Shown one piece after another: positions 54,582 to 55,608 of a DNA stretch of 64,000 bases. Under the pieces are notes generated by a model. That model was not told the DNA's origin. It searched no databases and was given only the letters and a program-made list of their open reading frames with translations. The translations under genes were made by a program, and so were the position numbers. Numbering within the stretch: position 1 is the first letter of the stretch; each line of letters opens with the position of its first letter. The stretch is taken from the NCBI GenBank assembly GCA_012338575.1, contig GCA_012338575.1_3616.1. The stretch is one strand, 5' to 3'. Source of the DNA: a phage.

Positions 54582-54610
54582 TTGACAAACTTTGCTTAAC
54601 AGTGTAATAT
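54582..54610 (+). promoter_or_regulatory. sigma70 consensus-like promoter upstream of tRNA cluster
   Basis: TTGACA 54582-54587, 17-bp spacer, TAATAT 54605-54610. Confidence 0.6.
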
Positions 54611-54668: not shown

Positions 54669-54743
54669 GCCCTGTTAGCTTAGTGGATAAAGCAGCGGCC
54701 TTCTAAGCCGTTGACACTGGTTCGAGTCCAGTACGGGGTGCCA
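54669..54743 (+). tRNA. tRNA-Arg (anticodon TCT)
   Basis: Manually folded cloverleaf: acceptor GCCCTGT/ACGGGGT, D-arm GCTT-AGTGGATA-AAGC, anticodon loop CTTCTAA, T-arm ACTGG-TTCGAGT-CCAGT, CCA encoded. Confidence 0.8.
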
Positions 54744-54873
54744 AGTTCTTTTTAATGTAGCTTACTTTAGCAGAGTAAATCTTCGGCAAGTGGCGGTAAC
54801 CACTTTACCGATACCTCATAGTTAGTGGTGAGAACACTAGCTATTTTAAAAAGAATTTAAATATTAGTATTTA

Positions 54874-54961
54874 GGTGAGTTAATTCCGTAGGGGTAGCGG
54901 GGCAGACTGTAAATCTGTTATCATTGCGATTCGGGTGGTTCGACTCCATCACTCACCACCA
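54874..54961 (+). tRNA. tRNA-Tyr (anticodon GTA), long variable arm
   Basis: Acceptor GGTGAGT/ACTCACC, anticodon loop CTGTAAA, T-loop GGTTCGACTCC, CCA encoded; 85 nt plus CCA. Confidence 0.8.
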
Positions 54962-55075
54962 AATTTATATTTTTAAATGCATAAATCATACAGGTAATGG
55001 CATTGATATTTATCGTCGTTTATACTAGTCACTAACTGCTCGAAAATCAGTGTCATTATCAGTATTGTTTATAAA

Positions 55076-55166
55076 AGAGGGTAGGGAGCAATGGTGCTCA
55101 AGCGGTCTTGAAAACCGTCCCGTTGAGGATGACTCGATGATGGTTCGATTCCATTATCCTCTGCCA
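55076..55166 (+). tRNA. tRNA-Ser (anticodon TGA), long variable arm
   Basis: Acceptor AGAGGGT/ATCCTCT, anticodon loop CTTGAAA, T-arm GATGG-TTCGATT-CCATT, CCA encoded. Confidence 0.75.
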
Positions 55167-55264
55167 TATTGTTGACCTTGTAATTAAGCGAAAGCCGGAA
55201 GCAGAACCGGATTATCAAATGTTACAGTCGTCATCGCCGACTAGCAACATGGTCAACATACTGA

Positions 55265-55361
55265 GCTAGGTAAGCCCTTTGGCAAGGGCGAGGATTTTTA
55301 ATCCTGAAAATAGACGAGGTAGTCGTTGAATACATAGGTGGTTCGATTCCATCACCTAGCA
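55265..55361 (+). other. aberrant tRNA-like element (canonical acceptor, D- and T-arms; anticodon region replaced/expanded)
   Basis: Acceptor GCTAGGT/ACCTAGC, D-arm GCCC-TTTGGCAA-GGGC, T-arm GGTGG-TTCGATT-CCATC, but middle is AGGATT-TTT-AATCCT hairpin plus about 30 extra nt; no encoded CCA. Confidence 0.4.
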
Positions 55362-55368
55362 CCTTTTT

Positions 55369-55444
55369 GCTGATGTAGCACAATTGGTAGTGCAATTGAT
55401 TTGTAATCAATAGGTTGCAGGTTCAAGTCCTGCCATCAGCACCA
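55369..55444 (+). tRNA. tRNA-Thr (anticodon TGT)
   Basis: Acceptor GCTGATG/CATCAGC, D-arm GCAC-AATTGGTA-GTGC, anticodon stem ATTGA/TCAAT loop TTTGTAA, T-arm GCAGG-TTCAAGT-CCTGC, CCA. Confidence 0.85.
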
Positions 55445-55445
55445 T

Positions 55446-55520
55446 GGCCCTGTAGCTGGAAGGTTCAAGCAAGCGACTCATAATCGCCAGACGGTGGTTC
55501 AATTCCACCCAGGGCCACCA
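55446..55520 (+). tRNA. tRNA-Met (anticodon CAT; elongator or Ile2-type)
   Basis: Acceptor GGCCCTG/CAGGGCC, anticodon loop CTCATAA, T-arm GGTGG-TTCAATT-CCACC, CCA; paired 1:72 argues against initiator. Confidence 0.75.
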
Positions 55521-55531
55521 AATAGTAAATA

Positions 55532-55608
55532 CTCCGCGTAGCTCAGCTTGGTAGAGCGCCTGATTTGGGATCAGGAGGTCGAGTGTTCGAATCACTCCGT
55601 GGAGACCA
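55532..55608 (+). tRNA. tRNA-Pro (anticodon TGG)
   Basis: Acceptor CTCCGCG/CGTGGAG, D-arm GCTC-AGCTTGGTA-GAGC, anticodon stem CCTGA/TCAGG loop TTTGGGA, T-arm GAGTG-TTCGAAT-CACTC, CCA. Confidence 0.85.

What the first reader, a model, noticed from the sequence alone, without database searches (positions are those of the whole stretch)
55265..55361. Aberrant tRNA-like gene in the tRNA cluster
Between tRNA-Ser and tRNA-Thr lies a 97-nt element with a well-paired acceptor stem (GCTAGGT/ACCTAGC), a good D-arm and a canonical T-arm (GGTGG-TTCGATT-CCATC). The anticodon region folds instead into AGGATT-TTT-AATCCT (3-nt loop) followed by about 30 extra nt; forcing a 7-nt loop gives TTTTTAA (Lys-like UUU) with a mismatched stem. 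It could be a tRNA pseudogene, an unusual tRNA needing processing, or a tRNA-like decoy.
Basis: seen in the sequence. Interest (0 to 1): 0.5.

Follow-up and report, generated by a model that had tools for sequence, protein, structure and literature searches.

The report
Conserved tRNA-shaped RNA in phage tRNA arrays
The odd "tRNA" is real: it is one member of an undescribed, well-conserved family of tRNA-shaped RNA genes that moves between the tRNA gene clusters of large enterobacterial phages, and its anticodon arm is too short for it to look like an ordinary decoding tRNA.

Summary
Window 55265-55361 (+) lies in the tRNA cluster of an rV5-like coliphage. It has a perfect 7-bp acceptor stem, a D arm, a canonical T arm, a short anticodon-position arm and a 30-nt extra region. 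ARAGORN calls it tRNA-???, and Rfam tRNA scores 35.5 bits (threshold 29).

It is not a pseudogene. Single-copy homologs occur in five Vequintavirinae genera, in about 31 Stephanstirmvirinae coliphages and in one N4-like Salmonella phage. None occur in bacterial genomes. My covariance model scores them at 72-119 bits, against 32 bits or less for ordinary tRNAs. In 28 distinct sequences 99% of stem positions pair, and 13 of 21 pairs show compensatory changes. The D-loop/T-loop elbow pair also switches from G:C to U:A. The element is as conserved as the neighbouring tRNA-Thr, while the spacers are randomised.

It departs from tRNA in several ways:
- The anticodon-position arm is 15-16 nt instead of 17, and 23 of 28 members have a 5-6-nt loop.
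- The loop sequence differs between clades: UUUUA here, and UUAUA, AUCAA or CNNCCA elsewhere.
- The D arm is tRNA-Sec-like.
- Two invariant A-rich single strands flank a covarying hairpin.

Best reading: a functional tRNA mimic matured by the tRNA-processing machinery and probably not an ordinary decoder. Its role is unknown. I favour a decoy or binding function; a nuclease-resistant tRNA-Lys(UUU) is the main rival.

The parts
55265..55361 (+). The tRNA-shaped RNA gene, from G1 to discriminator A73 (97 nt)
   Evidence: ARAGORN tRNA-???. Rfam tRNA 35.5 bits. Family model R1 98.6 bits. MFE cloverleaf z = -4.1.
55265..55271 (+). Acceptor stem, 5' strand (GCTAGGT). It pairs with 55354-55360.
   Evidence: 7 of 7 pairs. 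Across the family 100% of cells pair and 5 of 7 pairs show compensatory changes.
55274..55289 (+). D arm: stem GCCC/GGGC with loop TTTGGCAA. It can also be drawn as a 6-bp stem with a TGGC tetraloop, which is tRNA-Sec-like. G19 = 55282.
   Evidence: 3 of 4 stem pairs covary. Every member gives a 6-bp/4-nt MFE fold. G19 (55282) with C56 (55344) switches to U:A in 10 of 26 sequences.
55291..55305 (+). Anticodon-position arm, 15 nt instead of 17: AGGAT-TTTTA-ATCCT. Alternative reading: AGGA-TTTTTAA-TCCT, with UUU in the anticodon position.
   Evidence: The fifth pair 31:39 covaries (C:G 14, U:A 9, C.A 5), leaving 5-6-nt loops in 23 of 28 members.
55306..55313 (+). Conserved A-rich 5' linker (GAAAATAG)
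   Evidence: G and AAAA are invariant in alignment A1. The segment is unpaired in all MFE folds.
55314..55326 (+). Variable-arm hairpin ACGA-GGTAG-TCGT
   Evidence: A hairpin is present in every member, with different sequence and length. Compensatory change in Av-05: ACGG/CCGT.
55327..55336 (+). Conserved 3' linker TGAATACATA (AATACATA is invariant in the 26 A1 sequences)
   Evidence: Invariant columns in A1. Only the Stephanstirmvirinae member has an insertion, AAUACgAAAUA.
55337..55353 (+). T arm GGTGG-TTCGATT-CCATC, with a canonical T loop. C56 = 55344.
   Evidence: 100% paired with covariation at 3 pairs. Loop TTCGATT changes to TTAGATT together with the D-loop G-to-T change.
55354..55360 (+). 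Acceptor stem, 3' strand (ACCTAGC)
55362..55368 (+). 3' trailer CCTTTTT, which is also the leader of tRNA-Thr. CCA is not fully encoded here; most other family members encode U73-CCA.
54582..54610 (+). Sigma-70-like promoter TTGACA-17-TAATAT upstream of the tRNA array. It is the likely start of the polycistronic precursor.
   Evidence: Consensus scan, 10 of 12 matches. Not tested functionally.
54669..55608 (+). The tRNA array that holds the element: Arg(tct) 54669-54743, Tyr(gta) 54874-54961, Ser(tga) 55076-55166, the element, Thr(tgt) 55369-55444, Met(cat) 55446-55520, Pro(tgg) 55532-55608

Best explanation
The element is a functional gene for a tRNA-shaped RNA. It belongs to an undescribed, horizontally mobile family that lives only in the tRNA arrays of large virulent enterobacterial phages.

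Shown here:
- The RNA keeps a 7-bp acceptor stem, a 5-bp T arm with a canonical T loop, a D arm, and the D-loop/T-loop elbow pair. It therefore folds into a tRNA-like L shape and is under purifying selection.

Inferred:
- It is transcribed with its tRNA neighbours from the promoter-like site at 54582.
- It is cut out by RNase P and 3' trimming. Family members usually start 2 nt after the CCA of the upstream tRNA. This one ends 7 nt before tRNA-Thr.
- In rV5-type phages, where the gene reads A73-CC-U, it is completed by the CCA-adding enzyme.
- Its anticodon-position arm is 1-2 nt too short. In most members the loop has 5-6 nt, and its centre is the least conserved part of the molecule. I therefore infer that it is not an ordinary decoder.
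- It would instead be a tRNA mimic that is bound by, and titrates or serves, some factor that recognises the tRNA body. The two invariant A-rich single strands around the variable hairpin would be its specific surface.

Speculative last step: the partner belongs to the tRNA-centred conflict between phage and host, for example a tRNA-targeting defence toxin.

My confidence by step:
- Functional structured RNA gene: about 0.9.
- Matured like a tRNA: about 0.7.
- Not an ordinary decoder: about 0.6.
- Decoy for a defence factor: about 0.2.
For: Family and specificity:
- There is one copy per locus, scoring 72-119 bits with model R1, against 32 bits or less for all ordinary tRNAs.
- It is present in Vequintavirus, Avunavirus, Seunavirus, Mydovirus and Henunavirus.
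- It is present in about 31 Stephanstirmvirinae coliphages.
- It is present in one Schitoviridae phage. There, close relatives lack exactly this roughly 113-nt cassette.

Structure:
- 99.0% of stem cells pair and 13 of 21 pairs show changes on both sides.
- The covariation score is 0.469, against 0.181 for shuffles (0 of 500 reached it) and 0.109 or less for slid controls.
- The tertiary pair G19:C56 becomes U19:A56 in 10 of 26 sequences with no exception.

Selection:
- Mean pairwise identity is 0.78 for the element, 0.80 for the adjacent tRNA-Thr and 0.57 for the downstream spacer.

Evidence against ordinary decoding:
- The arm is 15-16 nt in all members.
- The 31:39 pair covaries, leaving 5-6-nt loops in 23 of 28 members.
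- Loops differ by clade: UUUUA, UUAUA, AUCAA, CNNCCA.
- In six otherwise near-identical sequences only four columns vary. The two loop positions that would be 33 and 34 each show three states (clustering P about 2e-4).
- U33 is replaced by A or C in most members.
- Seunavirus and Avunavirus loci that carry a UCC-like or UAU-like loop also encode a normal tRNA-Gly(tcc).
Against: - There is no expression, end-mapping, aminoacylation or binding data. Everything beyond 'conserved structured RNA' is inference.
- In this window the loop can be drawn as a canonical 7-nt anticodon loop UU-UUU-AA, and the discriminator is A73. Together these are the E. coli lysine identity set (PMC9976931). A73 is found only in this clade; the others have U73.
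- Part of each loop is conserved within clades (AUCAA; C..CCA), so the loop is not irrelevant.
- The covariation alignment A2 was fitted to the model structure, and related sequences can beat shuffles without any structure. The independent MAFFT alignment A1 gives the same picture.
- The element is dispensable in at least one phage, V18, and is absent from Certrevirus CR3.
Confidence: 0.5

Rival explanations
1. It is a working but structurally unusual tRNA-Lys(UUU). The anticodon stem opens to 4 bp, giving the 7-nt loop UUUUUAA. LysRS charges it through UUU and A73. It keeps AAA decoding going when host tRNA-Lys is cut by anticodon-stem-loop nucleases such as PrrC or PARIS, which would not recognise its altered arm.
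For: - Rfam tRNA aligns it this way, above threshold.
- The loop differs from the E. coli tRNA-Lys loop CUUUUAA only at position 32, and it shares the 8-mer UUUUAAUC with the host tRNA (host sequence from PMC11464382).
- A73 occurs only in the UUU clade. The anticodon triplet plus A73 is the lysine identity set (PMC9976931).
- rV5-type phages have no other tRNA-Lys.
- Several GenBank records annotate it as tRNA-Lys.
- Precedent: T5 tRNA-Lys escapes PARIS through anticodon-stem changes (PMC11464382).
Against: - It needs a 4-bp stem capped by G.G. The thermodynamically preferred fold is 6 bp with a 3-nt loop.
- Orthologs carry other loops of 5-6 nt, and the closing pair covaries.
- A 30-nt variable region with long single strands is unknown in lysine tRNAs. 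From my own knowledge of class IIb synthetase complexes, it would face the synthetase.
- It has A8/U14 instead of U8/A14.
- The sister clade Av-05 has UAU with U73 or C73.
Confidence: 0.25
2. It is an allo-tRNA/selC*-like recoding tRNA. The ancestral form, with loop CAUCAAA (UCA) and U73, would be a weak opal suppressor or missense tRNA charged by a synthetase that tolerates anticodon changes. The rV5 version would be a retargeted descendant.
For: - In other family members the best Rfam match is tRNA-Sec: Hena1 39 bits, SSE121 27, GAP31 23.7, L040 22.8.
- The Sec-like D arm (6 bp with a tetraloop) and long variable arm are predicted in all members.
- The CAUCAAA/UAUCAAA loop is conserved in the most divergent lineages: Henunavirus, Stephanstirmvirinae, Ithacavirus and metagenomic contigs.
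- Hena1 annotates it as tRNA-sup(tca).
- Mukai 2016 (PMC5389517) describes Sec-like tRNAs with U73 and UCA or other anticodons, some of them in phages.
Against: - The acceptor/T split is 7/5, not 8/4, 9/3 or 8/5.
- Position 33 is A, not U.
- The stem has 4 bp, or the loop closes to 5 nt in L034 and L040.
- C2:G71 is invariant, and it is a reported antideterminant for E. coli SerRS (PMC9976931).
- The window member has neither UCA nor U73.
- I did not look for, and know of no, in-frame UGA genes in these phages.
Confidence: 0.1
3. It is only a processing or punctuation signal, or a weak terminator. A tRNA-like handle would let RNase P cut the precursor, or the T-arm/acceptor hairpin plus U5 would stop transcription. 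The RNA itself would have no function.
For: - It sits in tight tandem with real tRNAs.
- The terminator-like scan flags the T-arm/acceptor hairpin followed by CCTTTTT.
Against: - Neighbouring tRNAs already provide RNase P sites.
- A handle would not need the invariant linkers, the anticodon-position arm, the variable hairpin or the elbow pair, all of which are conserved or covary.
- The U-run exists only in the rV5 clade; the others end in CCA.
Confidence: 0.06
4. It is a decaying tRNA pseudogene (for example a former class II tRNA) or a chance tRNA-like fold.
For: - Some records label it tRNA-Pseudo or tRNA-OTHER.
- V18 lost it without losing viability.
- Within the genus Vequintavirus its conservation is uninformative, because whole genomes there are 97-99% identical.
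Against: - It is conserved across genera and families at the level of tRNA-Thr, while spacers are at chance identity.
- Compensatory changes occur in every stem and in a tertiary pair.
- Between rV5 and Av-05 the element is 92% identical, against 71% for tRNA-Thr.
- It was gained as a discrete cassette by an N4-like phage.
Confidence: 0.04

Closest known systems
allo-tRNAs and selC* tRNA-Cys (Mukai et al. 2016, NAR, PMC5389517)
   Same: These are irregular tRNAs found through similarity to the tRNA-Sec model. They share the long variable arm, the tRNA-Sec-like D arm (long stem, tetraloop), U73 in many members, and anticodon triplets that vary between relatives (UAU, UCA and others). Some are charged but not used in translation, and some occur in phage tRNA clusters.
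   Different: Those have an 8/4 or 9/3 acceptor/T split and longer anticodon stems. This family is 7/5 with a shortened anticodon-position arm and long invariant single strands around the variable hairpin. The window member has A73 and UUU.
tRNA-Sec (Rfam RF01852)
   Same: It is the best Rfam match for most family members. It shares the 6-bp D stem with a 4-nt loop and the long variable arm. The family's widespread loop CAUCAAA differs from the model consensus CUUCAAA only at position 33.
   Different: All scores are below the gathering threshold (39 or less, against 47). The acceptor/T helix has 12 bp (7/5), not 13. There is no G73. The window member lacks UCA, and its best Rfam match is the general tRNA model.
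Phage T5 tRNA-Lys, which escapes the PARIS nuclease (Burman et al. 2024, PMC11464382), and phage tRNAs with altered anticodon loops (PMC10264068)
   Same: It is a phage-encoded RNA with a UUU triplet and an anticodon stem-loop different from host tRNA-Lys, in a virulent coliphage tRNA array.
   Different: T5 tRNA-Lys is an otherwise canonical 76-nt tRNA with a 5-bp stem, a 7-nt loop and a short variable loop, and its function was shown experimentally. None of this holds or is known for the element here.
Non-decoding tRNA-like RNAs made by the tRNA machinery: mascRNA (as summarised in PMC9976931) and Bacillus cereus tRNA-Other (cited in PMC5389517)
   Same: Each is a tRNA-shaped RNA with a defective or absent anticodon loop that is processed like a tRNA and acts by binding proteins rather than by decoding.
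   Different: They are unrelated in sequence and host. Similarity to them was not tested here, so the resemblance is functional analogy only.
Stable RNAs C and D (species 1 and 2) in the phage T4 tRNA region (from my own knowledge, not checked here)
   Same: They are small stable RNAs of unknown function encoded inside a phage tRNA cluster and processed with the tRNAs.
   Different: No sequence similarity was found. The element-specific searches found no T4-like phages.

Membership tests
Canonical tRNA (Rfam RF00005) | Score at or above the curated gathering score (29 bits) | tested here: met
   The window element scores 35.5 bits. For other family members the best clan match is tRNA-Sec, below its own threshold.
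Canonical tRNA (Rfam RF00005) | 7-bp acceptor stem, 5-bp T stem, T loop UUCRAnn, and D loop with G18 G19 pairing to the T loop | tested here: met
   G19:C56 covaries to U:A.
Canonical tRNA (Rfam RF00005) | 17-nt anticodon arm: 5-bp stem plus 7-nt loop with U33 | tested here: not met
   The arm is 15 nt here and 15-16 nt in all 28 members. It reads as either 5 bp + 5 nt or 4 bp + 7 nt with a G.G cap. Most members have A or C at position 33.
Canonical tRNA (Rfam RF00005) | Variable region that is short (4-5 nt) or a class II arm with only 1-2 unpaired nucleotides flanking it; U8 and A14 | tested here: not met
   The variable region is 30-31 nt: 8 unpaired, a 13-nt hairpin, then 10 unpaired. A8 and U14 are invariant. 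The 'normal' ranges come from my own knowledge.
Canonical tRNA (Rfam RF00005) | Aminoacylation and use on the ribosome | not testable with these tools
   This needs acid-gel Northern blots, charging assays and reporter decoding.
tRNA-Lys(UUU) | Lysine identity set: anticodon U34 U35 U36 plus A73 (PMC9976931) | tested here: inconclusive
   UUU and A73 are present in the sequence if the 7-nt loop reading is taken. The alternative closed-stem reading removes the anticodon loop. Charging was not tested.
tRNA-Sec (Rfam RF01852) | Score at or above the gathering score (47 bits) | tested here: not met
   The best family member is Hena1 at 39 bits; others score 23-27. In the window the tRNA-Sec hit is outscored by the tRNA model.
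tRNA-Sec (Rfam RF01852) | 13-bp acceptor/T helix (8/5 in bacteria), UCA anticodon, G73 | tested here: not met
   The split is 7/5 in all members. UCA occurs only in the Hena-type members. The discriminator is A in the window and U in most others. The defining values come from PMC5389517 and my own knowledge.
tRNA-Sec (Rfam RF01852) | 6-bp D stem with 4-nt D loop, and a long variable arm | tested here: inconclusive
   Both are predicted in every MFE fold. However, the two extra D-stem pairs (UU/AA) never vary, so covariation cannot confirm them.
allo-tRNA (Mukai 2016) | 12-bp acceptor branch split 8/4 or 9/3 | tested here: not met
   The split is 7/5, with 100% pairing of both stems.
allo-tRNA (Mukai 2016) | Sec-like D stem-loop, long V arm, and G73 or U73 | tested here: inconclusive
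   The D arm and V arm fit. U73 is found in most members, but the window member has A73.
tmRNA | tRNA-like domain plus tag-peptide reading frame | tested here: not met
   ARAGORN reports no tmRNA. Rfam gives no tmRNA hit on the element. The 30-nt insert is too short for a tag ORF with pseudoknots.

The most novel reading that the evidence does not exclude
The family is a new class of phage RNA counter-defence or host-manipulation factor. It would be a mobile tRNA mimic that is excised and CCA-tailed by the host tRNA machinery but cannot decode. Through its tRNA body plus the invariant A-rich strands, it would sequester or misdirect a host protein that acts on tRNAs. Candidates include a toxin that modifies or cleaves the acceptor end or class II tRNAs, or a synthetase. 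The clade-specific loop would tune which partner is engaged.
Probability: 0.17. Interest if true: 0.85.

Novelty: new variant of a known kind. Interest (0 to 1): 0.6.

Why it matters
Phage tRNA genes have recently been recast as weapons against tRNA-cleaving bacterial immunity. This family has several notable properties:
- It is present in roughly 220 sequenced phages of E. coli, Salmonella, Klebsiella, Cronobacter, Enterobacter, Erwinia and Proteus.
- It is conserved as strongly as a real tRNA.
- It has moved between unrelated phage families.
- Annotation is contradictory or missing: Lys, Ile, Arg, Ser, Thr, TERM, OTHER, Pseudo, a hypothetical protein, or nothing.
- It has no Rfam family, and I found no description in the literature searched.

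If it is a non-decoding mimic, it would be a compact bacterial-virus counterpart of tRNA-like regulatory RNAs and a candidate RNA anti-defence factor in phages used for therapy and biocontrol. If it decodes, it would show that a tRNA with a 4-bp anticodon stem and a 30-nt variable region can work on the ribosome. In either case it corrects tRNA counts and isotype calls in many phage genome papers.

Tried and rejected
- ARAGORN in relaxed and intron modes gives only artefactual folds: an 8-nt loop that pairs the U-run with the A-run, or 'tRNA-Gln with a 5-nt intron'. That U-run/A-run pairing exists only in the rV5 clade.
- Rfam with a permissive E-value gives nothing on the element except tRNA and tRNA-Sec.
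- A protein-coding reading is rejected. Five of six frames contain stops, and the open minus-strand frame is a mechanical ORF that runs into tRNA-Thr. The small CDSs annotated over homologs in some records are not conserved.
- An outer helix in the variable region (AUGU/ACAU, suggested by the tRNA-Sec alignment of Hena1) is not maintained in other clades.
- The idea that the CNNCCA loop mimics a tRNA 3' end (N-CCA) fits Seunavirus and Mydovirus members only. It does not fit the AUCAA or UUUUA loops.
- The idea that the family is glycine-accepting (U73, G1:C72, C2:G71, C35, C36) fits one clade only. Those phages also carry a normal tRNA-Gly(tcc).
- Second copies or paralogs: none. There is one hit per locus.
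- Bacterial or prophage origin: there were no hits in one genome per GTDB species using the 3' motif, nor in 5,426 complete E. coli genomes.
- Certrevirus CR3 has no member in its tRNA cluster.
- Seven literature searches and the rV5 genome paper gave no description of the element.
- tRNAscan-SE was not available.
- I did not test stop-codon usage in UCA-type phages. I judged it to have low power.
Full report
**What is there.**
The window is from an rV5-like coliphage (genus Vequintavirus). The 1.5 kb around the finding is 99% identical to Escherichia phages ECML-10, JEP1 and many others. Window 55265-55361 (+) sits in a tRNA array:
- Arg(tct) 54669-54743
- Tyr(gta) 54874-54961
- Ser(tga) 55076-55166
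- the element
- Thr(tgt) 55369-55444
- Met(cat) 55446-55520
- Pro(tgg) 55532-55608

A sigma-70-like promoter, TTGACA-17-TAATAT, lies at 54582-54610.

- Acceptor stem GCTAGGT/ACCTAGC, with discriminator A55361.
- D arm GCCC-TTTGGCAA-GGGC.
- T arm GGTGG-TTCGATT-CCATC.
- An anticodon-position arm AGGAT-TTTTA-ATCCT, which can close to a 6-bp stem with a UUU triloop.
- 31 further nucleotides before the T arm.

The minimum-free-energy fold is this five-arm cloverleaf at -34.2 kcal/mol, with z = -4.1 and 0 of 200 shuffles as good.

**Standard tools.**
- ARAGORN calls it tRNA-???(atcc). Relaxed and intron modes give only artefacts.
- Rfam's tRNA model scores 35.5 bits (gathering score 29). To do so it deletes one anticodon-stem position, reads the loop as UUUUUAA, and inserts about 26 nt in the variable region.
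- Public records disagree. The same sequence is labelled tRNA-Lys, tRNA-OTHER, tRNA-Pseudo, tRNA-TERM, tRNA-???(atcc), 'hypothetical protein', or left blank.
- The rV5 genome paper lists six tRNAs and not this element (PMC3606486).

**It belongs to a family.**
- BLAST with the element, and then with diverged homologs, found it in five genera of Vequintavirinae:
  - Vequintavirus
  - Avunavirus (Av-05)
  - Seunavirus (KE22, SSE121, GAP31, FENT2)
  - Mydovirus (Mydo, DP, NDO71)
  - Henunavirus (Hena1, pEa_SNUABM_56)
- A search for the conserved 3' motif added viral and metagenomic contigs, and found none in one genome per GTDB species.
- A covariance model built from 26 distinct sequences finds exactly one copy per locus at 90-119 bits. 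Ordinary tRNAs score 32 bits or less.
- The model also finds a member in about 31 Stephanstirmvirinae coliphages, unannotated there (EmilieFrey, 72.6 bits).
- It finds one in a single N4-like Schitoviridae phage, Salmonella phage UTK0002 (98.9 bits).
- Other Ithacavirus genomes have the same flanking (8/4) tRNA-Ser and tRNA-Asn but lack exactly the element plus a CCAAATTT spacer, about 113 nt.
- No match exists in 5,426 complete E. coli genomes.
- Certrevirus CR3 has no member in its tRNA cluster.
- Phage V18 carries a deletion that fuses the 5' part of tRNA-Tyr to the 3' part of the element.
- The element is therefore a discrete, mobile, phage-only cassette that can be lost.

**The tRNA shape is under selection.**
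- On the MAFFT alignment A1, 97.9% of cells pair and the acceptor, D and T stems pair at 100%. The D-loop/T-loop elbow pair G19:C56 is replaced by U19:A56 in 10 of 26 sequences without exception.
- On the model-guided alignment of 28 distinct sequences, 99.0% of cells pair and 13 of 21 pairs carry changes on both sides. The covariation score is 0.469, against 0.181 for shuffles (0 of 500 reached it) and 0.109 or less when partners are slid.
- Two caveats apply. That alignment is fitted to the structure, and related sequences can beat shuffles without structure. The slid controls and the independent alignment argue that the signal is real.
- Over 13 loci the mean pairwise identity is 0.78 for the element, 0.80 for the neighbouring tRNA-Thr and 0.57 for the 150 nt downstream.
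- Between rV5 and Av-05 the element is 92% identical, while tRNA-Thr is 71% identical.
- Identities of the element and of tRNA-Thr are incongruent between phages (for example 0.98 against 0.76, and 0.71 against 1.00). This indicates module shuffling.

**How it departs from a tRNA.**
1. *Short arm.* The anticodon-position arm has 15-16 nt, never 17. The closing pair 31:39 covaries (C:G 14, U:A 9, C.A 5). This leaves loops of 5 nt (rV5, Av-05, L034, L040) or 6 nt (Seunavirus, Mydovirus) in 23 of 28 sequences. Only five have a 7-nt loop, on a 4-bp stem.
2. *Clade-specific loop*.
   - UUUUA in this window.
   - UUAUA in Av-05.
   - (C/U)AUCAAA in Henunavirus, Stephanstirmvirinae, UTK0002 and metagenomic contigs.
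   - CNNCCA in Seunavirus and Mydovirus.
3. *Variable loop centre.* In six otherwise near-identical sequences the only variable columns are the two loop positions corresponding to 33 and 34 (three states each) and two others (clustering P about 2e-4). In a decoding tRNA these are among the most constrained positions.
4. *Sec-like D arm.* The D arm can form 6 bp with a tetraloop in every member. Outside the rV5 clade the best Rfam match is tRNA-Sec, always below threshold (39 bits or less, against 47).
5. *Long variable region.* It is a hairpin whose sequence and length change but whose stem is kept. It is flanked by two single strands that are nearly invariant, G-AAAA(A)UA and AAUACAUA.
6. *Core positions.* A8 and U14 replace the usual U8 and A14.
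7. *3' end.* Most members encode U73-CCA. The rV5 clade has A73-CC-UUUUU and Av-05 has U/C73-ACA.

**Interpretation.**
The acceptor/T-arm helix, the elbow, the tight tandem spacing to real tRNAs and the CCA (or near-CCA) ends make it very likely that the RNA is cut out and finished by the tRNA maturation machinery. That step is inferred, not shown.

Whether it decodes is open.
- *Against decoding:* the short arm, the small loops, non-U33, variation at positions 33 and 34, orthologs with unrelated triplets, and coexistence with a canonical tRNA-Gly(tcc) in loci whose element has a UCC-like loop.
- *For decoding in this particular clade:* the loop can be drawn as UU-UUU-AA. It differs from the E. 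coli tRNA-Lys loop only at position 32 (host sequence in PMC11464382). A73 appears only here. UUU plus A73 is the lysine identity set (PMC9976931). rV5 has no other tRNA-Lys. A phage tRNA-Lys that escapes anticodon-arm nucleases has a precedent in T5 (PMC11464382).

I weight the family-wide evidence more heavily and favour a non-decoding tRNA mimic, with the conserved single strands as a specific binding surface. A role as a decoy in tRNA-centred defence and counter-defence is plausible but untested.

Invariant C2:G71 is a reported antideterminant for E. coli SerRS (PMC9976931). This argues against simple serylation despite the long arm.

**Comparison with known kinds.**
The nearest described objects are the irregular, tRNA-Sec-like allo-tRNAs and selC* tRNAs of Mukai et al. 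(PMC5389517).
- They share the Sec-like D arm, the long V arm, U73, variable anticodons including UAU and UCA, cases that are charged but not used in translation, and occurrence in phages.
- The defining 8/4 or 9/3 split is not met here, since this family is 7/5. Their anticodon stems are longer, not shorter.
- The element also fails the tests for tRNA-Sec (score, 13-bp helix, G73, UCA) and fails the anticodon-arm and variable-region criteria of canonical tRNA.

I therefore file it as a new variant of the known kind 'irregular or tRNA-like RNA genes in tRNA clusters', not as a member of any named family. I found no Rfam family and no paper describing it. The literature library is incomplete, so prior description elsewhere cannot be excluded.

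**Verdict.**
- The pseudogene option is rejected, and 'unusual tRNA-like RNA' is upheld.
- The function is unresolved. A non-decoding mimic is favoured (about 0.5 overall). A nuclease-resistant tRNA-Lys is the main rival (about 0.25).
- Interest is moderate to high. The family is widespread, strongly constrained, mobile, mis-annotated and directly testable in tractable coliphages.

Noticed in passing
window 55076-55166: The tRNA-Ser(tga) has an 8-9-bp terminal helix and a 4-bp T stem. It scores 39.4 bits with the tRNA-Sec model (below threshold). It looks like the (8/4) tRNA-Ser type that Mukai et al. reported in phages. The same type lies unannotated next to the element's homolog in Salmonella phage UTK0002 (L046 about 1396-1482) and in FSL SP-076 (L050 about 308-395).
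   Followed up: partly
window 54874-54961: ARAGORN misses a class II tRNA-Tyr(gta), but Rfam tRNA finds it at 39 bits. Tool-dependent tRNA counts in these phages are unreliable.
   Followed up: partly
L003 (Escherichia phage V18) 1453-1545: This is a chimeric gene: the 5' part of tRNA-Tyr fused to the 3' part of the element (junction ...CTATTGG|TCGTTGAATACATAGG...). A deletion removed tRNA-Ser and half of each partner. The two acceptor strands no longer match.
   Followed up: partly
L002 about 1800-1885 (Av-05); L049 about 1404-1490 (EmilieFrey): There are further irregular tRNA-like genes with a UCU anticodon-type loop, a paired acceptor stem and a T arm, but no normal D arm. They are not annotated and not called by ARAGORN. 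In EmilieFrey one follows a strong promoter-like TTGACA-N17-TATAGT.
   Followed up: no
L046 1488-1600 versus L050 395-400: There is a clean presence/absence of one roughly 113-nt cassette (the element plus CCAAATTT) between (8/4) tRNA-Ser and tRNA-Asn in otherwise about 93% identical Ithacavirus genomes. The spacers on both sides resemble each other (CCAATTATG and CCAAATTTG), which suggests recombination between tRNA 3' ends or spacers.
   Followed up: partly
GenBank MG0656xx records (hits): Eighteen records named 'Campylobacter phage' are 99-100% identical to rV5-like coliphages across this region. The host label looks doubtful.
   Followed up: no
tRNA arrays of 241Ecol014PP, SSE121 (L009 516-902) and CR3 (L048 20937-21293): HNH homing-endonuclease genes are inserted inside or next to these tRNA arrays. 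Together with the incongruent identities of neighbouring tRNA genes, this suggests endonuclease-driven shuffling of tRNA cassettes.
   Followed up: no
window 55167-55264: The 98-nt spacer between tRNA-Ser and the element folds with a long-range stem, TGTTGACC (about 55170) with GGTCAACA (about 55250), at z = -2.6. Its significance is unknown.
   Followed up: no
L049 1-246; L048 14551-17283: In Stephanstirmvirinae and Certrevirus the tRNA array lies directly downstream of the genes for nicotinamide phosphoribosyltransferase and ribose-phosphate pyrophosphokinase (NAD+ salvage).
   Followed up: no
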